Sequence record: PQ462667.1
Length of the DNA stretch: 64,000 bases
Source: Escherichia phage HMD-P3
Direction: 5' to 3' (one strand)
The translations under genes and the position numbers were made by a program. The notes under the pieces are model-generated. The model had not been told where the DNA came from. It was given only the letters and a program-made list of their open reading frames with translations, and ran no database searches. Of the stretch, positions 6,018 to 40,763 are shown one piece after another; positions within the stretch are counted from its first letter, which is position 1, and each line of letters opens with the position of its first letter.

Positions 6018-6180
6018 CGTTCTTAAATGCGAATCATTATCATTCGCATTCCACTTTTTAAATGAGAATCATTCCACTTTCTAAATGAGATTGATTCTCG
6101 TTTCACTTTCTAAATGCGAATTATTATCATTCTCATTCCGCTTTTTAAATGAGAATGATTCTTATTATCATTCGTATTTA
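6018..6180. repeat. about 6 direct or partly palindromic copies of the ctttttaaatgagaatcatt family
   Basis: Copies at about 6023, 6051, 6073, 6098, 6125 and 6143; ORF-free. Confidence 0.7.
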
Positions 6181-6206
6181 GCGCAGGGCAATTGCCCTGC
6201 GCTTTT
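6181..6206. terminator. GC-rich perfect hairpin (gcgcagggc-aatt-gccctgcgc) followed by TTTT
   Basis: 22-bp palindrome then a T-run; could terminate transcripts from either direction. Confidence 0.55.
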
Positions 6207-6943
6207 GTGCAAATCCGACATTGCTCCACGGGTGTTACGTGCGGGCATGTATGTGCAAATCCGACAATTTTTGGCAGTGTGCAAATCTGACCCGAAAAAT
6301 TTTTATAGTGTGCAAATCCGACAATGAATTTTCCTAAAAACTCCAGCAATCCGATGCTGCGCATCAATCCTGTGGAATTAACTAGAATATGTGCAAATCC
6401 GACATGGGTTTATTTGTGCGAATCCGACAAGATTTTTATGACTTCGATGAGAGGGTGTGTGATTGTGTGAGTTTAGGGAGAAGATGAGAGAGTGAGAGAA
6501 AATTAGGGGAACTACGGAAGGGGCGCATGTTTGGTGCAGGGCACCAGATTTGCGGGGATTTTGGGGAAGAGTTGAGAAGATTTGAGTTAATTTGAGATTA
6601 GTGGAGATAAAGTAAAATTTTATTAGCAAAATGGGGCAAAATAACTTGACAAGTGAAAATTTCTGTGGCTCTAAAAACTCAGGCAATCATGGGCCTTCGG
6701 CCCGAAATAATGCTGCTATTTTCAGGAGATTATGTGTTCCTAAAAACTTAGGTAATTGTGCAAATCCGACCATAAATTTCTAGAAACACAATGTGCAAAT
6801 CCGACAGTAATTTCTGGAAATGTGTTTTCAAAAAATGTCTCCTAGAAATAACCGCCCTCCCCATAACCGCCCTGTATAGGAAAACCGGCCTAGGATATTT
6901 ATAGTAGATGAAAAACTGCCCTAGAACATGTGCAAATCCGATT
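6206..6943 (+). repeat. nine same-orientation copies of the 15-mer TGTGCAAATCCGACA
   Basis: Copies at about 6206, 6252, 6278, 6309, 6390, 6415, 6757, 6792 and 6929 (four with one or two substitutions); irregular spacing. Confidence 0.8.
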
Positions 6944-7351: not shown

Positions 7352-8189
7352 TCATGAGTTTGGAGTTGGGTAAACTTTTATACAACCTTGACTTAATAGA
7401 TACTCTTCTGCCTCTACAGCTTTAATGTTGAATATCTCTTTTGCTCCATCGAATTTATAATGGTTAGCAAATTTATTTTCGAAAAATTTATGTGCTTGAT
7501 GTTCTATTCTGTAAGCGAGTTCTTTCGATCCTTTTAATGATACGGCGACCACCGAGATCTACACCTGAGGAAACACTCTTTCCCTACACGACGCTCTTCC
7601 GATCTTGATGTTCTATTCTGTAAGCGAGTTCTTTCGATCCTTTCTTATATTGGTAGATACCAAATACTTCCATATCTTCGAAACCCGGCACACGCAATTT
7701 ATCATACTCTAGATTCTTAAACCTTTGATGTGGCTCTCTAGAGACTCCAATCTTTGTCTTTAATTTTTTCCTAGACTGATCTTTATTAGAGAAGATATAG
7801 AGATATGTGGGAAATTGAACATCTTCATCTACTTCTGGCTTCTCGACAGGTGTATTAAGGTTGCTTTCTCTAGCACACTGTAAACAGCCGTGCCCATCTA
7901 GGTGGGATCTAGCAGTTTGCATAAAGTATCCTTTATGCTTATAGCACCATATCTCTACTAACTGATTGGCTGTCTTATAATTAACTTTTTCATACCCATA
8001 TTCTTCTTTCTGGACTTTTAAAGCTTTCCTAATAAAGATAAGGTTTAAGGCCTCTTGTTGGAAGTCAGGGTGAAGTTGCCTAATCTTCGTTATATTAGTA
8101 GAGCCATTTGACTTCAAAAAGTTTTTAAGAGGAAACCTCCGGGCTTCCTCTCGTAGCTTTTTATTAATTTCAGTACGTAAATCATCCAT
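7352..8189 (-). CDS. HNH-like (Cys/His-rich) homing-endonuclease-family protein, reading frame broken by the adapter artefact
   Basis: Track ORFs 7352..7552 and 7584..8189 share the duplicated peptide KGSKELAYRIEHQ; paralog of 10216..10659; motif CYKHKGYF...TARSHLDGHGCLQC. Confidence 0.6.
7536..7605 (+). other. Illumina P5/TruSeq adapter with 8-nt index CTGAGGAA (sequencing artefact)
   Basis: Exact AATGATACGGCGACCACCGAGATCTACAC-CTGAGGAA-ACACTCTTTCCCTACACGACGCTCTTCCGATCT; flanked by a direct duplication of about 40 bp (7494-7535 and 7606-7645). Confidence 0.95.
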
Positions 8190-33553: not shown

Positions 33554-33631
33554 TGGTGGCTCCCCGAGGATTCGAACCTACGTACCTTCCGGTTATGAGC
33601 CGGGTGCTCATACCATATGAGCTTGAGAACC
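33554..33631 (-). tRNA. tRNA, anticodon CAT (Met or Ile2)
   Basis: Acceptor ggttctc/gggagcc (G-U pairs), D-stem gctc/gagc, anticodon loop ctCATaa. Confidence 0.55.
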
Positions 33632-33747: not shown

Positions 33748-34317
33748 TTAGAAATTTAGCTTCATAGCAAGAAAATTTTTCAAGTTTTCGGTAGACATCT
33801 CATCCACATCTACAGGAGAAACAAATCCATTTAATTGTCTAGCAAACTTTTCACCAGCAGGATCGTTGTCCCCAACAGCTACTAATTTGAAAGGTAATAA
33901 TTTCAGTTGCTTTAATAACGCTTTTCCTGGAGAAGAACCCAGCATTGCCAGGGCTGGATAACCAGCATTATGTAATGCAACTGCCTTAAATACAGATTCA
34001 GCAATCAATACTACTTTTTCATCTCCATTGAGAGTTTCTAGTCCCCATACACACTGTGTAGTGGAGTAGGTAAAATATTTAGCCTCAAAGGGGCACTTAC
34101 CATGCCCTTTTGGAGCAGAAGGATTATACGTCTGATAGCCCCGCAACATCCCAGAGAAGTCATACAATGGGACTGTTAGCCACCCTTCCGGGCTTAACCA
34201 GCAATGATATTTATCTGTATCAAATCCTCTAGATAAGAGGTGCTGTGTTAGCTCATCAACATTCATATTTGGTTCCTCTCTCAAATTTATAGATATATTA
34301 TACAGAGAATTTAGCAT
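33748..34317 (-). CDS. Toprim-domain-like protein (189 aa)
   Basis: VVLIAESVFKA ... LVAVGDNDPAGEKFA matches the Toprim E...DxD layout; call by motif only. Confidence 0.45.
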   Translation of the reverse strand: MLNSLYNISINLREEPNMNVDELTQHLLSRGFDTDKYHCWLSPEGWLTVPLYDFSGMLRGYQTYNPSAPKGHGKCPFEAKYFTYSTTQCVWGLETLNGDEKVVLIAESVFKAVALHNAGYPALAMLGSSPGKALLKQLKLLPFKLVAVGDNDPAGEKFARQLNGFVSPVDVDEMSTENLKNFLAMKLNF

Positions 34318-34441: not shown

Positions 34442-34470
34442 TTGACATTTTTGTTGGGGTAGTGTAAAGT
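34442..34470 (+). promoter_or_regulatory. sigma70-like promoter (TTGACA-N17-TAAAGT) for the plus-strand island
   Basis: Read directly upstream of 34533; differs from the TTGCTT/TATAAT early module. Confidence 0.45.
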
Positions 34471-34532
34471 ATATGTTATGGATGAGTGATCAAAGAGACA
34501 CACATTTTCTATATACTAGGAGGTGTCAAAAA

Positions 34533-35525
34533 ATGACAGAAGAAGTAGCTAAGAGTCCTGAGACCGTCGCTAGCGTTGCAGCAGAACTGCACCGTCACGA
34601 GGAATCAGATAAGAAAAAGTGGGAGAAGGTCAGAGCCTACGAAGAAAAACATCGTGAACACGATGAAGATGATGAAGAAGATGACGATGATGAACATTGT
34701 CATAAATATGGAAAACATAAAATGCAAGAACCAGTAAACGTATTCACTAGTGGCTTCCCTGGCCTAATGGGCGGTTACCCAGCAAACGCAGGTGCTTTTG
34801 GTGGTGAAGGTATGGGTCTATTCGGAGCTATCCTAATCGGTGCTCTATTAACAGGCGGATTCGGTGGTTTCGGTGGATTCGGTGGACGTGGTGTAGTTGG
34901 TGATGGTAGCGCAGTTGATGCAGTGCTTCAGAATCAAGATACCGCTAGTATTCTAGCAGCTATTAACACTACTCGTACAGAAGCTAATCAGGGTACTGGA
35001 GCTGTTTTAAGCGCAGTTAATAATGGTTTTAGCCAGACATCCCAAAACCAGAGCCGTGATACTCAGTCTGTACTAACTACGATCTATGGTACGGGTGCTA
35101 ATCTGTCTAATCAAATCTGCCAGGAAACTCGCAACGTTATTCAGGGTCAGTTCGATCTTTCTCGCCAGATTGATCAATCTTTCGCAGCTAACCAGATAGC
35201 TCGTGCACAAGATAAGTTTGATTCTGCACAGATCGCTTTCCAGCAGACTTTACAAACTAATAACCAGTTTGCAGCTGTTCAGGCTCAGATGTGTGCTAAC
35301 CAGAACTCTCTGGAACGTCAGATCGCTGAATGTTGCTGTGAACTTCAGACTGCGATCGCTGGTGTAACTACTGCACGTATCCAGGACGAGTTAGACGCAT
35401 GTCGCCTACGTGAAGCAATCGCTGCGGGTAGTGGTGCTAACGGTCAGGTAATTAATCAAATCGCTTTAAGTCTTGGTGCTATCACTCAGACTCTGGCTGG
35501 TCTGCAGGCTAAACTGCCGGCTTAA
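34533..35525 (+). CDS. acidic N-terminus / glycine-zipper hydrophobic segment / Q,N,S,T-rich protein
   Basis: Start moved to the ATG behind taggaggtg; DEDDEEDDDDEH tract, GMGLFGAILIGALLTGGFGGFGGFGG, long polar low-complexity tail, CCCE; E. coli-like codon usage. Confidence 0.65.
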   Translation: MTEEVAKSPETVASVAAELHRHEESDKKKWEKVRAYEEKHREHDEDDEEDDDDEHCHKYGKHKMQEPVNVFTSGFPGLMGGYPANAGAFGGEGMGLFGAILIGALLTGGFGGFGGFGGRGVVGDGSAVDAVLQNQDTASILAAINTTRTEANQGTGAVLSAVNNGFSQTSQNQSRDTQSVLTTIYGTGANLSNQICQETRNVIQGQFDLSRQIDQSFAANQIARAQDKFDSAQIAFQQTLQTNNQFAAVQAQMCANQNSLERQIAECCCELQTAIAGVTTARIQDELDACRLREAIAAGSGANGQVINQIALSLGAITQTLAGLQAKLPA

Positions 35526-35546
35526 TATTAAGGGGAGGAGCCCATT

Positions 35547-35963
35547 ATGAGTAAATATGGTTTTGTAAATAACGGACTTAATCAAAGTATGGGCTCCCAG
35601 CAGCCCATTCCAGGTCTGGATAACCCCTACTTACAACAGTTGCAACAGCGTTTAGCAGAAGCGCAACAGATGCAGCAACAACTCCAGCAAAATCCTAGAA
35701 GTGTGAGTCCTATACAAATGATGCAGCAAATGAGCGGGCAGTCGCAAATGCCTCAACAAATGCAGCAACAGATGCCGCAGCAGCAAGTTCAGCAACAAAC
35801 CCAACAACCGCAGGTTTCTGCGGAAGGACAGGCAGTACTAGCCCTTTTCGAAGACTTCGCAAAGACAGAGGATGGGAAGCAGCTTGTATCACTTATGGGT
35901 AAGTTTAATAGCTTCTGCCAAAGCCAAATTGCAAAAGCTCAAAATAGCGGTGATAACTCCTAA
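35547..35963 (+). CDS. glutamine-rich protein
   Basis: Q-rich runs (QQLQQRLAEAQQMQQQLQQ, MPQQMQQQMPQQQVQQQTQQPQ); RBS aaggggagga. Confidence 0.6.
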   Translation: MSKYGFVNNGLNQSMGSQQPIPGLDNPYLQQLQQRLAEAQQMQQQLQQNPRSVSPIQMMQQMSGQSQMPQQMQQQMPQQQVQQQTQQPQVSAEGQAVLALFEDFAKTEDGKQLVSLMGKFNSFCQSQIAKAQNSGDNS

Positions 35964-35972
35964 GGAGGAATT

Positions 35973-36167
35973 ATGTGTTGCAGAAAATCTGTTTCGTGCT
36001 GCCCAATGCCTGTAGCACGTTGTTGCTCTCCAGCAATGTTTACGCAAATACCGGCGTTCAATCCGTTTGCCTTTAAGCCTACTCTTATCCTGCCCCCTAG
36101 AGTAGATTTTCAGTCAAGATTGGCCTCCCGTATGGGTGGTTGCTGTACACCGAGAGTGTGGTTCTAA
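35973..36167 (+). CDS. Cys-rich small protein
   Basis: MCCRKSVSCCPMPVARCC...GGCC; RBS aaggagga. Confidence 0.5.
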   Translation: MCCRKSVSCCPMPVARCCSPAMFTQIPAFNPFAFKPTLILPPRVDFQSRLASRMGGCCTPRVWF

Positions 36168-36180
36168 ACCAAAAAACAAA

Positions 36181-36213
36181 AGCCCCTGCCGAAAGGTAAG
36201 GGGCTTTTTCTTT
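36181..36213 (+). terminator. rho-independent terminator
   Basis: gcccct-gccgaaaggta-aggggc followed by ttttt. Confidence 0.65.
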
Positions 36214-36217
36214 TGCC

Positions 36218-36259
36218 TTAAATACAGAAAAGCCCGCGCTCTCAGAGGAAACGCGGGCT
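36218..36259 (-). terminator. rho-independent terminator (convergent)
   Basis: agcccgcg-ctctcagaggaaa-cgcgggct with a T-run on the minus strand (plus aaatacagaaa). Confidence 0.6.
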
Positions 36260-36283
36260 TGGTTAGAAGATTACGTGTAACTA

Positions 36284-37340: not shown

Positions 37341-37844
37341 TTTAAGTATTTTTAAGAACTCTCGTAAAAACTCTTAAAAATACAGACGATACCGGGAGAG
37401 TCATAAGTCTCACTCATTAAGTATTTCAAGACAAAATACGGTAACGTCTACTATTTTCCAGTTTAAGTCAGGGTGACTTAGTGGTTATGTCCTGCGGTAT
37501 ATTGAGGACTCGGTTAGGCTCGGGGTCATGACTTCCCGCCTTTTGCTGCTACTCAACAGGAGTTATCGCGAATTACCTGTGCTATTGTGCACCATTAGTG
37601 ACATCTCTCATGCCAGCATTTCCCACTTTGTGGATAGCTTGAAAAACTACTCCGATATGGAGAAAGAACTTCACTATCCTAGAATACCTTCTAAAGTTCT
37701 TCTTTAGCCTGGACATAGTTAAATCGTAATAAAACTATTCAGCAGACTGGTTGGTTAGTCTGGAACCAACTACCGCGTGGTTTAGGCAGTGCGCAACTAA
37801 CCTCGGAAGCTTTTACTTTAAAAGCATCAGTTATCCAGTTCTTA

Positions 37845-37920
37845 CCGACCATAGGATTCGAACCTACATCTTCCACCAGTTACGGCTTGATAATACCAAT
37901 TATACTAGGACGGCAGTGTT
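37845..37920 (-). tRNA. tRNA-like element, no encoded CCA, anticodon not resolved
   Basis: T-arm gtagg-ttcgaat-cctat and 6/7-bp acceptor found; anticodon arm not convincingly foldable by hand. Confidence 0.3.
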
Positions 37921-39629: not shown

Positions 39630-40071
39630 AATAGCCTCGTTTCATCAATTTAAAAATATATTATACATATAATTTAGTAGATTAGCAAATACATTTTTAA
39701 ATTGTGAAACTAGTAAACCGATAAACAGCCTAGAGGCGCCACAGGCCATACCTTATGAGCCATGTACCTTTGATCTAGGGTTTTAATCATCAACGAATAC
39801 TTTGCATCTTTTAGCTTTAGAAGTTTAGAAGTTTGAGTTCTTTAAACTTTTCAGCTTTCATACTTAAATGTTGATCTTTGAAGTTGTGTCGGTAATATCA
39901 ACGACGCTTTGTTTTTACGTGTCAGCTTAAAAGGCTGGTGTAATAAACATAATCTCCAATAGATTATACTTTATAGTATGGTCAGCGGTCCTATTTAACC
40001 TCGTATTTCAACCGCTGCTGCGAGGTAAGATGCTTGGGCTTTCGTCTACCGATTTACTAGCTTTTAAATTA

Positions 40072-40710
40072 TTACTCTACTTCAATGAAGGTAGAGGCGT
40101 TAGACTCGGACAGAACAAAGTCAACATTTGTTGCAAAGTCCTGATATTCCTCGTCATGCTGCTTAATCAGCTTTTCCAGTTCCAGCGGATCAATCAAGAA
40201 TGGAGTATTCTTGAGTTCCAGCAGGTTGAGCTGCATTTTAACTTCATCTTCGGAAGTTTTCTTATCGCGAGTAGCCATGCTATCCTGCAAACGCTCATAT
40301 TTAGCATCAAACTGTGCTTTCTGCGTATTAAACTTAACCGTAGCGGCATGGAACTGCTTACGCATGTTAGCAAGCAGTTGAGCTTTAAGTTCCATAGAAC
40401 GCTTAGCTTCAATTGCTTCCGCAACAGTCATCTTACGAGAGCCAATCTCAACGATTGTTTCTGCATTGCTCTTAATCAGAGCAGATTTGATACTATCACG
40501 CTTAGACATCATATCCAGCAGAGACTGGAAATCAGTCTTAATACGAGTAGACAGATCGGCTACTTCGATTGCAGCGCCAACTACAACCTGGTTTTTATCC
40601 TTACCTTCACCAACAGCGATCAGAAGCTGCTGTTCAGTAGCTTTACGGATTTTAGCTTCCAGAGATTTGATAGTTGCCAGAGCACGAGTTTTAGAAATAC
40701 GAGTAGTCAT
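40072..40710 (-). CDS. hypothetical coiled-coil protein
   Basis: 212-aa ORF. Confidence 0.55.
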   Translation of the reverse strand: MTTRISKTRALATIKSLEAKIRKATEQQLLIAVGEGKDKNQVVVGAAIEVADLSTRIKTDFQSLLDMMSKRDSIKSALIKSNAETIVEIGSRKMTVAEAIEAKRSMELKAQLLANMRKQFHAATVKFNTQKAQFDAKYERLQDSMATRDKKTSEDEVKMQLNLLELKNTPFLIDPLELEKLIKQHDEEYQDFATNVDFVLSESNASTFIEVE

Positions 40711-40763
40711 TATTTGCTTCCTTATATGAAGTTTGAGATTTGAATTTGTTTGAATTTGGTCTA

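What the first reader, a model, noticed from the sequence alone, without database searches (positions are those of the whole stretch)
34442..36215. Opposite-strand three-gene island inside the tRNA cluster: glycine-zipper/QN-rich protein, Q-rich protein and Cys-rich peptide
This is the only rightward unit between 7 and 50 kb, with its own TTGACA-type promoter and terminator. It encodes (1) a 330-aa protein with a polyacidic tract, a glycine-zipper hydrophobic segment (GMGLFGAILIGALLTGGFGGFGGFGG) and a long Q/N/S/T-rich tail with a CCCE motif; (2) a 138-aa glutamine-rich protein with prion-like runs; (3) a 64-aa peptide with about 10 cysteines. Codon usage is more E. coli-like than neighbours. 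It converges on an SPFH/band-7 gene with back-to-back terminators. The composition suggests a membrane-active or aggregation-prone effector set (bacteriocin-like or host-takeover or superinfection-exclusion), but I cannot assign it to any known system.
Basis: partly seen in the sequence, partly recalled or inferred. Interest (0 to 1): 0.75.

Follow-up and report, generated by a model that had tools for sequence, protein, structure and literature searches.

The report
Dispensable T5 accessory operon T5.077–079
This is a real, conserved three-gene operon of a T5-like phage (T5.077-T5.079) that the phage can lose without harm in the laboratory. Its function is unknown, and its main protein belongs to a very large, never-studied protein family shared by T1-, T5-, N4- and crAss-like phages.

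Summary
Window 34442-36216 is a self-contained rightward unit: promoter TTGACA-17-TAAAGT, three genes with strong ribosome-binding sites, and an intrinsic terminator. It lies between leftward tRNA and early genes of a Tequintavirus. It is not new as an entity: in phage T5 it is annotated as promoter P12, T5.077/078/079 and a bidirectional terminator.

Three lines of evidence show it is dispensable. The viable T5st0 mutant lacks it, spontaneous tRNA-rich-region deletions remove it, and CRISPRi-ART scores all three genes "Not Fit". No Pfam, NCBIfam, PADLOC, PDB or Foldseek match assigns a function.

What I add:
- The three genes travel together, in divergent T5-like phages and in one N4-like phage, each time next to tRNA genes.
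- ORF1 belongs to a superfamily of more than 3,000 proteins (PHROGs 8119, 9288, 16490) in T1-like, eiAU-like, Sasha-like, Vibrio and crAss-like phages. The family is defined by a glycine-rich hydrophobic segment, long uncharged helices and an invariant CCC triplet.
- ORF2's glutamine run is a variable spacer. ORF3 is a real gene with conserved MCC and CC.

My best guess, at low confidence, is an abundant, cysteine- or metal-linked, membrane-associated complex that gives a conditional benefit at the cell envelope. Spanin, fusion-protein, bacteriocin and prion readings failed their tests.

The parts
34442..34470 (+). Sigma-70 promoter TTGACA-17-TAAAGT (T5 'P12' / 'T5P21')
   Evidence: Scan match of 10/12. 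Both hexamers and their spacing are conserved in divergent Demerecviridae loci L014 and L013. Annotated as a promoter in NC_005859 and AY587007. Its temporal class has not been measured.
34533..35525 (+). ORF1 = T5.077 homologue, 330 aa, PHROG 8119
   Evidence: Translation. PHROG E 9e-206. 396 phage records hold the region. CAI 0.437. AF2 predicts mostly helix, mean pLDDT 51.6.
34533..34787 (+). ORF1 N-domain (aa 1-85): confident helix 12-45, polyacidic/His tract, conserved MQEPVNVF motif
   Evidence: Block pLDDT 83-93 for aa 11-40. The domain is absent from distant homologues, which start near M64. The 9-bp repeat GATGAAGAT x3.7 explains its length variation.
34788..34910 (+). ORF1 glycine-rich hydrophobic segment (aa 86-126, 44% Gly)
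   Evidence: KD19 maximum 1.72 at aa 95-113. G93, G95, L101, G103, L105, G109, G112 and G114 are invariant in the T5/N4 group. The 9-bp repeat GGATTCGGT occurs x3.3. The AY587007 copy is frameshifted here.
35331..35339 (+). Invariant CCC triplet (aa 267-269) in the motif RQIAECCCE
   Evidence: Invariant in alignments A5 and A4. Present in 126 of 126 retrieved family members.
35547..35963 (+). ORF2 = T5.078 homologue, 138 aa, PHROG 7894
   Evidence: PHROG E 5.5e-78. 117 clusters, all T5-like. There is a conserved N-terminal helix, a conserved C-terminal module LFEEFAKTEDGKQLVSYMGKFNSFCQS with invariant C124, and a variable Q/P/M spacer. pN/pS 0.16.
35973..36167 (+). ORF3 = T5.079 homologue, 64 aa, four CC pairs
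   Evidence: Present in all 23 loci examined, including three divergent ones. M1, C2, C3, P13, C17, C18 and P41 are invariant. pN/pS 0.37. It has no PHROG and no true relatives among 1.84 billion representatives.
36178..36216 (+). Intrinsic terminator of the operon (hairpin plus U-run; A-run upstream, so bidirectional)
   Evidence: -20.2 kcal/mol, z -4.1. Annotated 'efficient bidirectional rho-independent transcription terminator' in NC_005859.
36230..36260 (-). Convergent terminator of the SPFH gene; also carries the T5 32.6% nick-site motif
   Evidence: -19.9 kcal/mol, z -4.1. The nick is annotated at the equivalent place in T5.

Best explanation
T5.077-079 is a self-contained, horizontally mobile accessory ('moron'-type) operon.

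Proposed mechanism:
- Host sigma-70 RNA polymerase transcribes it from the conserved promoter P12 and stops at the bidirectional terminator.
- gp077 (ORF1) is made in large amounts. It associates with the cytoplasmic membrane through its glycine-zipper-like hydrophobic segment and oligomerises through its long, uncharged helices.
- gp078 has two conserved helical modules on a flexible Q-rich tether. gp079 is a peptide that starts Cys-Cys once Met is removed. Both dock on gp077.
- The nine cysteines conserved across the set (C254 and CCC in ORF1, C124 in ORF2, two CC pairs in ORF3), together with the His/acidic tract, hold the complex together. The bond is most likely a thiolate-metal centre, or disulfides if the domain is outside the cytoplasm.
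- The complex alters the envelope of the infected cell in a way that helps only under natural conditions. The most likely benefit is to hinder entry or action of competing phages or of host envelope-linked defences. It is not needed for replication, assembly or lysis in laboratory hosts.

Shown: gene structure, conservation as a unit, dispensability, family membership, motifs.
Inferred: membrane insertion, complex formation, metal binding, envelope function.
For: - Unit structure and a conserved promoter and terminator.
- The three genes are kept together at 36-47% ORF1 identity in Demerecviridae and in an N4-like phage that encodes a virion RNA polymerase.
- Purifying selection acts on ORF2 and ORF3.
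- Dispensability: the T5st0 deletion covers the unit, T5st0 is the standard infectious lab strain, CRISPRi-ART scores the genes 'Not Fit', and spontaneous 8-kb tRNA-rich-region deletions are viable.
- The unit is nevertheless retained in about 396 of about 452 T5-like records.
- High CAI and strong Shine-Dalgarno sequences point to abundance.
- The hydrophobic segment reaches a transmembrane-like score in T5-like members, with KD13 means of 2.28 and 1.63 across 126 members.
- CCC is invariant in 126 of 126 members, and cysteines are conserved in all three proteins.
- Polyacidic/poly-His tracts are fused to ORF1 here and sit in the neighbouring gene in the Sasha, T1-like and eiAU cassettes. There is a weak ferritin-like neighbour in a myophage.
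- In other phages the neighbours are often membrane or lysis proteins: holin and LysB-like in crAss-like phages, endolysin and TM proteins in Vibrio phage, and transmembrane (apparently LemA-like, by eye) proteins in L014.
- In other phages too, the homologue sits in independent opposite-strand units with their own terminators.
Against: - There is no experimental localisation.
- The hydrophobic segment is too weak for a transmembrane helix in the T1-like member (KD19 1.13). In eiAU no Gly-rich-segment window is the KD19 maximum (1.36, which lies elsewhere in the protein).
- Flanking charges give no topology.
- ORF2 and ORF3 have no signal peptides, so the side of the membrane is unresolved.
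- AF2 confidence is low.
- No heptad periodicity was detected.
- The uncharged Q/N/S/T/A-rich helices resemble extracellular fibre proteins more than cytoplasmic ones.
- No similarity to any known exclusion protein was found.
- tRNA-rich-region deletion mutants showed changed plating only on retron Eco2 and Eco7 strains, and that effect maps to other genes.
Confidence: 0.35

Rival explanations
1. Counter-defence module. The cassette is one more cargo of the tRNA-rich anti-defence island. It neutralises a host immune system that has not yet been tested, for example by titrating or sequestering an effector.
For: - It lies directly beside T5.076/SP15 ORF75, an experimentally shown anti-retron gene, and among tRNAs that rescue phage from retron Eco7/PtuAB.
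- In the N4-like phage the cassette is again next to tRNA-Asn, Gln and Tyr.
- It is dispensable on defence-poor lab strains but kept in most isolates.
- It has its own sigma-70 promoter in the early region, annotated as early.
Against: - Of the nine tRNA-rich-region fragments tested, only F6 and F8 rescued the deletion phages from the two retrons. The determinants were tRNA-Tyr and ORF75, not ORF76/77.
- On the Gao panel only those two retrons differed.
- A large, abundant, glycine-rich helical protein is unlike known small anti-defence proteins.
- Homologues in T1-like, crAss-like and myophages sit in late or structural regions.
Confidence: 0.2
2. Non-essential virion-associated fibre or decoration. 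gp077 would be a helical stalk protein attached to the particle. It was missed because T5 structural work uses the deletion strain T5st0.
For: - The helices are low in charge and rich in Q/N/S/T/A, like fibre proteins.
- A single 130-residue helix is predicted for the crAss homologue, with block pLDDT 53-86.
- Homologues follow lateral tail-fibre genes in T1-like and eiAU phages, lie between capsid and connector genes in a myophage, and precede structural genes in crAss-like phages.
- Depositors labelled crAss members 'viral fiber' or 'spike glycoprotein'.
- T5st0 lacks the gene.
Against: - In T5-likes it lies in the early region behind a promoter annotated as early, whose discriminator ATATG is one base off the early-class ATATT.
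- Its loss causes no infectivity defect.
- ORF2 and ORF3 have no counterpart in known fibre systems.
- In Sasha and Vibrio phages it is an opposite-strand unit outside the structural operons.
- No PDB virion protein matches it.
Confidence: 0.12
3. Lysis-related membrane factor. This could be an auxiliary fusion- or spanin-like protein, or a lysis-timing protein, that acts together with the holin or the SPFH protein.
For: - The architecture is a Gly-rich hydrophobic segment followed by long helices with cysteines.
- ORF1 contains the literal string GLFGAI, as in the influenza fusion peptide, and there are weak HA2 hits (E 0.16-0.3).
- Holin, LysB-like and endolysin genes are neighbours in crAss-like and Vibrio phages.
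- T5 keeps its lysis genes in the early region.
Against: - T5-likes already have holin, endolysin and Rz-like spanin genes elsewhere.
- ORF3 has no lipobox or signal peptide.
- The HA2 similarity is not significant.
- No heptad signal was detected.
- T5st0 lyses normally.
- The SPFH adjacency is not conserved.
Confidence: 0.1

Closest known systems
T5.077 / T5.078 / T5.079 with promoter P12 and the bidirectional terminator (NC_005859)
   Same: Orthologous genes, the same order, and the same promoter and terminator positions. The nucleotide sequence is 97-98% identical to many Tequintavirus isolates.
   Different: Nothing essential differs. There are small length differences in the repeat tracts (321 against 330 aa) and two C-terminal variants of ORF3 (CCTPRVWF and CCNKSIWF).
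PHROGs 9288 and 16490: T1-like/Sasha/eiAU 'hypothetical' or 'putative sugar-binding' proteins, and crAss-like 'spike protein/glycoprotein' or 'outer capsid protein/viral fiber'
   Same: All share a short N-terminal V-x-V-(F/L)-P motif, a glycine-rich hydrophobic segment, Q/N-rich helices, an invariant (E/R)CCCE motif and a K-(L/Q)-P motif near the C-terminus. The profile-profile match is 98.6% probability, E 9e-16.
   Different: These homologues lack the 63-residue acidic/His N-domain. Their partners differ: a His/acid-rich ~110-120 aa protein plus two others in siphophages, and DUF7841 in crAss-like phages. Some carry a GCCG or GCGCGC tail. Their genomic contexts are late.
Two-component spanins (Rz/Rz1)
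   Same: A membrane-associated N-terminal part followed by a long helical domain with cysteines, paired with a small Pro- and Cys-containing partner.
   Different: There is no lipobox or signal sequence in ORF3 and no family match. T5-likes already carry Rz-like genes, and the operon is not in a lysis cassette.
Class I viral fusion subunits (influenza HA2)
   Same: A Gly-rich hydrophobic peptide (literal GLFGAI) directly followed by a long helix with a cysteine knot near a helix break.
   Different: The E-values are 0.16-0.3. There is no C-terminal anchor, no cleavage-generated N-terminus, no heptad signal and no Foldseek match.
Moron-encoded superinfection-exclusion or envelope proteins (T5 Llp, HK97 gp15, T4 Imm/Sp)
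   Same: These are dispensable, independently transcribed accessory genes that act at the envelope and are often placed near tail or receptor-binding genes. This comparison rests on my own knowledge of those systems.
   Different: No annotated exclusion family turned up in any Pfam or PHROG scan. This unit has three proteins and a far larger main subunit, and no exclusion phenotype has been tested.

Membership tests
PHROG 8119 / 7894 (T5.077 / T5.078 families) | Full-length profile match | tested here: met
   E 9.3e-206 over 1-330 and E 5.5e-78 over 1-138.
CCC superfamily (PHROGs 8119 + 9288 + 16490) | Glycine-rich hydrophobic segment, helical Q/N-rich domain and an invariant CCC; significant profile-profile match between subfamilies | tested here: met
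   hhalign 98.6% probability, E 9.3e-16 over 218 columns between non-overlapping alignments. Cross-hits of distant members to PHROG 8119. CCC in 126 of 126 members.
Two-component spanin | o-spanin with a lipoprotein signal peptide and lipobox Cys | tested here: not met
   ORF3 starts MCCRKS with no hydrophobic h-region; its KD19 maximum is 0.85.
Two-component spanin | Family match to Rz/Rz1, and location in or substitution for the lysis cassette | tested here: not met
   No Rz PHROG or Pfam hit. Rz-like spanins, holin and endolysin are annotated elsewhere in a T5-like genome.
Class I fusion protein (HA2-like) | Significant sequence or fold similarity and heptad-repeat coiled coil | tested here: not met
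   Best PDB E-value 0.16. Foldseek returned 0 hits. Power at 3.3-3.8-residue periodicity equals that of shuffles, with 228 of 500 shuffles reaching it.
Integral single-pass membrane protein | Hydrophobic helix of about 19 residues above the TM threshold, conserved in the family, with a charge bias that sets topology | tested here: inconclusive
   KD19 is 1.72 here but 1.13-1.81 in relatives. Flank charge bias is weak.
Bacteriocin / colicin-like | Cytotoxic domain, immunity gene, and an export or release signal | tested here: not met
   No toxin or immunity family in Pfam, NCBIfam or PADLOC. No leader peptide is visible in the sequence.
Prion-like Q/N domain protein | A conserved Q/N-rich domain under selection as such | tested here: not met
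   The Q-rich stretch of ORF2 is the least conserved, length-variable part (106-146 aa homologues). It is made of a 12-bp tandem repeat.
SPFH-NfeD type operon partner | Conserved linkage to the SPFH gene | tested here: not met
   The genes are convergent, not co-transcribed. SPFH is absent next to the cassette in L013, L014 and L015.
Cysteine/histidine metal-binding assembly | Bound metal; cysteines required for function | not testable with these tools
   Only motifs are available: invariant CCC, CC pairs, and His/acid tracts in cis or in neighbouring genes.
Anti-defence gene | Rescue of phage on a strain that carries a defined defence system | not testable with these tools
   Published tests attribute retron Eco2/Eco7 evasion to ORF75 and tRNA-Tyr, not to this cassette. 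Other systems are untested.

The most novel reading that the evidence does not exclude
The CCC proteins would be a previously unrecognised, pan-Caudoviricetes class of membrane-active oligomers, present in T1-, T5-, N4-, crAss-like and other phages. They would be built like a viral fusion subunit: a Gly-rich hydrophobic peptide, a very long helix and a metal- or disulfide-locked triple-cysteine knot. With lineage-specific small partners, here a Q-tethered adaptor and an MCC peptide, they would remodel or seal the host envelope during infection. That would be a new mechanism of phage exclusion or envelope control.
Probability: 0.15. Interest if true: 0.8.

Novelty: new variant of a known kind. 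Interest (0 to 1): 0.5.

Why it matters
The operon itself is ordinary in one sense: it is annotated, dispensable and of unknown function. Its main protein, however, anchors a family of thousands of sequences in the most abundant gut phages (crAss-like) and in the classic coliphage groups (T1, T5, N4). The family has an absolutely conserved CCC motif and no known function.

T5 offers a tractable model. Deletion strains already exist, and the genes can be knocked down without killing the phage. Solving the function in T5 would therefore annotate a large block of phage 'dark matter'. If the envelope or exclusion reading is right, it would add a new type of phage-phage or phage-host interaction, encoded next to a known anti-defence island.

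Tried and rejected
- Spanin reading: rejected. ORF3 has no lipobox, and Rz-like genes lie elsewhere.
- HA2 / class I fusion homology: not significant, and no heptad signal.
- Fold searches: both AF2 models have low confidence (mean pLDDT 51.6 and 55.8). Foldseek against the PDB and BFVD gave nothing.
- Pfam, NCBIfam and PADLOC, run on the three proteins. Pfam was also run on 59 family members. Only sub-threshold low-complexity hits appeared, such as Rifin and Cluap1.
- The Q-rich 128-aa protein beside a myophage homologue looked like ORF2, but BLASTP shows no similarity.
- Internal duplication in ORF1: not detected.
- Topology from flanking charges: inconclusive.
- The 'cAMP-dependent protein kinase' label on ORF2 in some records appears to be an artefact of the glutamine run; there is no kinase family hit.
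- A functional SPFH partnership: rejected on lack of conserved linkage.
- ORF3 relatives outside the cassette: none. Only one true cluster was found among 1.84 billion representatives.
- Virion proteomics of T5-like phage phiR2-01: the gene-block layout the paper reports has no forward-strand genes within g011-g090, so that phage seems to lack the unit, and its tables were not available.
- Literature searches for T5.077-079, the PHROG numbers and DUF7841 found no functional study.
- A related-loci scan with the broad alignment failed for lack of a conserved stretch.
Full report
**1. What the window is**

The region is 97-98% identical to many Tequintavirus (T5-like) genomes, and 396 phage records hold it. 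In the T5 reference genome, NC_005859, the same unit is annotated as promoter P12, T5.077, T5.078, T5.079 and an [quoted passage not shown]. It is followed by the convergent SPFH gene T5.080. A second T5 record calls the promoter "putative early promoter T5P21".

**2. Check of the observation**

The three ORFs are at 34533-35525 (330 aa), 35547-35963 (138 aa) and 35973-36167 (64 aa). Each has a strong Shine-Dalgarno sequence.

The promoter TTGACA-17-TAAAGT lies at 34442-34470. A consensus match alone means little. However, both hexamers and their spacing are kept in two divergent Demerecviridae loci whose ORF1 is only 42-47% identical, which argues for function.

The + strand terminator folds at -20.2 kcal/mol and the convergent one at -19.9 kcal/mol. 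Both have z = -4.1 against shuffles.

tRNA genes on the - strand flank the unit. No other + strand ORF of at least 100 aa between 7 and 50 kb belongs to a phage protein family. At 40.0-40.7 kb it is the - strand ORF that matches PHROG 1491.

- ORF3 has 8 cysteines, not about 10.
- Only ORF1 has raised CAI: 0.437 against a window mean of 0.274 (sd 0.083).
- ORF2 and ORF3 are at 0.23, which is average.

**3. Are all three real genes?**

Yes.
- ORF1 and ORF2 match PHROGs 8119 and 7894 over their full length.
- ORF3 has no PHROG, but an MCC-initiated ORF follows ORF2 in all 23 loci examined.
- Three of those loci are very divergent. Between them, M1, C2, C3, P13, C17, C18 and P41 are invariant.
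- pN/pS is 0.37 for ORF3 and 0.16 for ORF2.

**4. The unit is dispensable**

- The st0 deletion mutant of T5 (AY692264) has its recombination site just after tRNA-Asp. Its sequence resumes in the gene next to the cell-wall hydrolase. The deletion therefore removes the Toprim gene, T5.077-079, the SPFH gene and tRNA-Arg (compared).
- T5st0 is used as the standard infectious strain.
- CRISPRi-ART scored T5.077, T5.078, T5.079 and T5.080 as "Not Fit" and of unknown function (PMC11879866 supplement).
- Azam et al. found spontaneous ~8-kb deletions of this tRNA-rich region in T5 and SP15 stocks. The mutants were viable and lost only evasion of retrons Eco2 and Eco7. That effect mapped to ORF75 and tRNA-Tyr (PMC11555353).
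- SP15 ORF75 is the homologue of window 33748-34317, and ORF76/77 are ORF1/ORF2.
- One T5 record has ORF1 frameshifted within the GGF repeat.
- Even so, the cassette is found in about 396 records, against 452 for a core replication gene. It is therefore maintained in nature.

**5. The cassette is mobile and travels as a unit**

ORF1-ORF2-ORF3 occur together in divergent T5-like contigs (L013, L014). They also occur in a 71-kb contig that encodes an N4-type virion RNA polymerase (L015). Each time they lie on the strand opposite to the neighbouring genes and directly beside tRNA genes. The SPFH gene is not next to the cassette in any of these. In L014 the convergent neighbours are other membrane proteins. 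ORF2 relatives exist only with this cassette.

**6. ORF1 belongs to a very large uncharacterised family**

- A single-sequence search found weak hits outside T5-like phages. A profile search returned 3,378 proteins at E <= 0.001 among the 8,000 candidates scored.
- A clean profile-profile test used T5/N4-type sequences only against crAss-type sequences only. It gives 98.6% probability, E 9e-16 over 218 columns.
- Members hit PHROGs 9288 and 16490 as well as 8119.
- All 126 retrieved members contain CCC. The triplet is invariant in both subfamily alignments.

Hosts and contexts of the homologues:

| Phage group | Context of the homologue |
|---|---|
| crAss-like Suoliviridae | Between holin and LysB-like genes and the structural block; labelled "spike protein/glycoprotein" or "viral fiber" |
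| A myophage | Between capsid and connector genes |
| Edwardsiella phage eiAU and T1-like Drexlerviridae | After the lateral tail fibre, followed by three small genes |
| Sashavirus | The same four genes, with annotated terminators, amid opposite-strand genes |
| Vibrio phage | A two-gene opposite-strand unit beside endolysin and TM proteins |

**7. Anatomy**

ORF1 has four parts.
- An N-terminal domain found only in the T5/N4 branch, with one confidently predicted helix (aa 12-45) and a polyacidic/His tract.
- The conserved motif MQEPVNVF.
- A segment of 44% Gly whose core GLFGAILIGALLTGGFGGF scores KD19 1.72.
- About 200 residues predicted helical, with 14.7% Q, 16.2% A and only about 13% charged residues. 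This part contains C254, the triplet C267-269 at a helix break, and a nearly invariant C-terminus GQVINQIAVSLGAITQTLAALQAKLPA.

A crAss homologue is predicted to form one 130-residue helix that starts at the CCC motif, with block pLDDT 53-86. A simple Fourier test finds no heptad periodicity.

The hydrophobic segment is weaker in the T1-like member, so membrane insertion is plausible but not a proven family trait.

ORF2 has a conserved N-terminal helix and a strongly conserved C-terminal module with invariant C124. The two are joined by a Q/P/M spacer of variable length. ORF3 keeps two CC pairs.

In the Sasha, T1-like and eiAU cassettes, the gene after the CCC protein carries polyacidic and poly-His tracts, for example DDDDDEEEDVEIHHHHHYHHGHH. 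These resemble the N-domain that is fused to ORF1 here. A myophage neighbour gives a sub-threshold ferritin-like hit, and the crAss neighbour is DUF7841. Taken together, the Cys and His/acid themes suggest metal binding, but this is inference only.

**8. Known families tested**

- Pfam, NCBIfam, PADLOC, PDB sequences and Foldseek gave no significant match.
- Spanin: ORF3 lacks a lipobox, and T5-likes have Rz-like genes elsewhere.
- HA2: E is only 0.16-0.3 despite the literal GLFGAI string.
- The bacteriocin, prion-like and SPFH-partner readings each fail a defining feature (see the membership table).

**9. Interpretation**

What is firmly supported is a dispensable, mobile accessory operon whose three products probably act together. 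I rank the readings as follows:
- 0.35: an abundant, cysteine- or metal-linked, membrane-associated complex with a conditional envelope function such as exclusion or protection.
- 0.20: a counter-defence role tied to the neighbouring anti-defence island.
- 0.12: a non-essential virion fibre that was missed because structural work uses T5st0.
- 0.10: a lysis-related role.

The temporal class of P12 is unmeasured. Its discriminator ATATG is one base off the ATATT reported for T5 early promoters. The divergent neighbouring promoter P15A is experimentally early.

**10. Verdict**

The finding is real and correctly described, but it is already annotated and experimentally shown to be non-essential. 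The added value is threefold: the cassette-level conservation, the link to a huge CCC superfamily, and the exclusion of several tempting analogies. Interest is moderate.

Noticed in passing
window 36230-36260 (motif about 36236-36240, - strand): The SPFH-side terminator hairpin carries the Pu|GCGC motif. At the equivalent place both T5 GenBank records annotate the major single-strand nick (32.6% interruption). A site-specific nick therefore sits inside a terminator stem between convergent units.
   Followed up: partly
window 33748-34317 (-): The divergent upstream Toprim-domain gene (189 aa) is the homologue of SP15 ORF75 / T5.076, which was shown experimentally to let T5-like phages evade retrons Eco2 and Eco7. 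Its mechanism is unknown.
   Followed up: partly
window 33557-33631 (-) and 37843-37914 (-): Rfam finds two further tRNA-like genes (40.3 and 33.7 bits) that ARAGORN did not report.
   Followed up: no
L042 (Sasha) 6049-6417; L039 (KarlJaspers) 7578-7901; L011 (eiAU) 6346-6711: In siphophage versions of the cassette, the gene after the CCC protein has polyacidic and poly-His tracts. These are fused to a conserved helical domain, EMEY(K/R)ELM...GI(E/K)KELTDLAAACI (PHROG 9157). Two more conserved small genes follow (PHROGs 8329 and 7239), all of unknown function.
   Followed up: partly
L009 and L010 (crAss-like cr4_1, cr53_1): Many in-frame stop codons appear in the table-11 translations of neighbouring genes. 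This suggests stop-codon reassignment in these crAss-like phages.
   Followed up: no
window 34662-34694, 34857-34893, 35745-35779: Short in-frame tandem repeats (9, 9 and 12 bp) underlie the acidic tract, the GGF run and the QMPQ linker. They explain length variation among homologues. One T5 record is frameshifted in the GGF run.
   Followed up: partly
window 40030-40743 (+) vs 40072-40710 (-): Two long ORFs overlap on opposite strands, and T5 records disagree on which one to annotate. Only the - strand ORF matches a PHROG (1491, labelled 'tail fiber protein').
   Followed up: partly
L014 6573-8206 (-): In a divergent T5-like phage the SPFH gene is replaced, as the convergent neighbours of the cassette, by a 190-aa protein with an N-terminal hydrophobic stretch (LemA-like by eye) and a 353-aa protein with hydrophobic stretches at both ends. 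Neither was scanned against a family library.
   Followed up: no
L015 4278-4675 (-): The N-like... N4-like contig carrying the cassette has tRNA-Asn, Gln and Tyr directly beside it. tRNA-Tyr is the anti-retron-Eco7 tRNA in T5-like phages.
   Followed up: no
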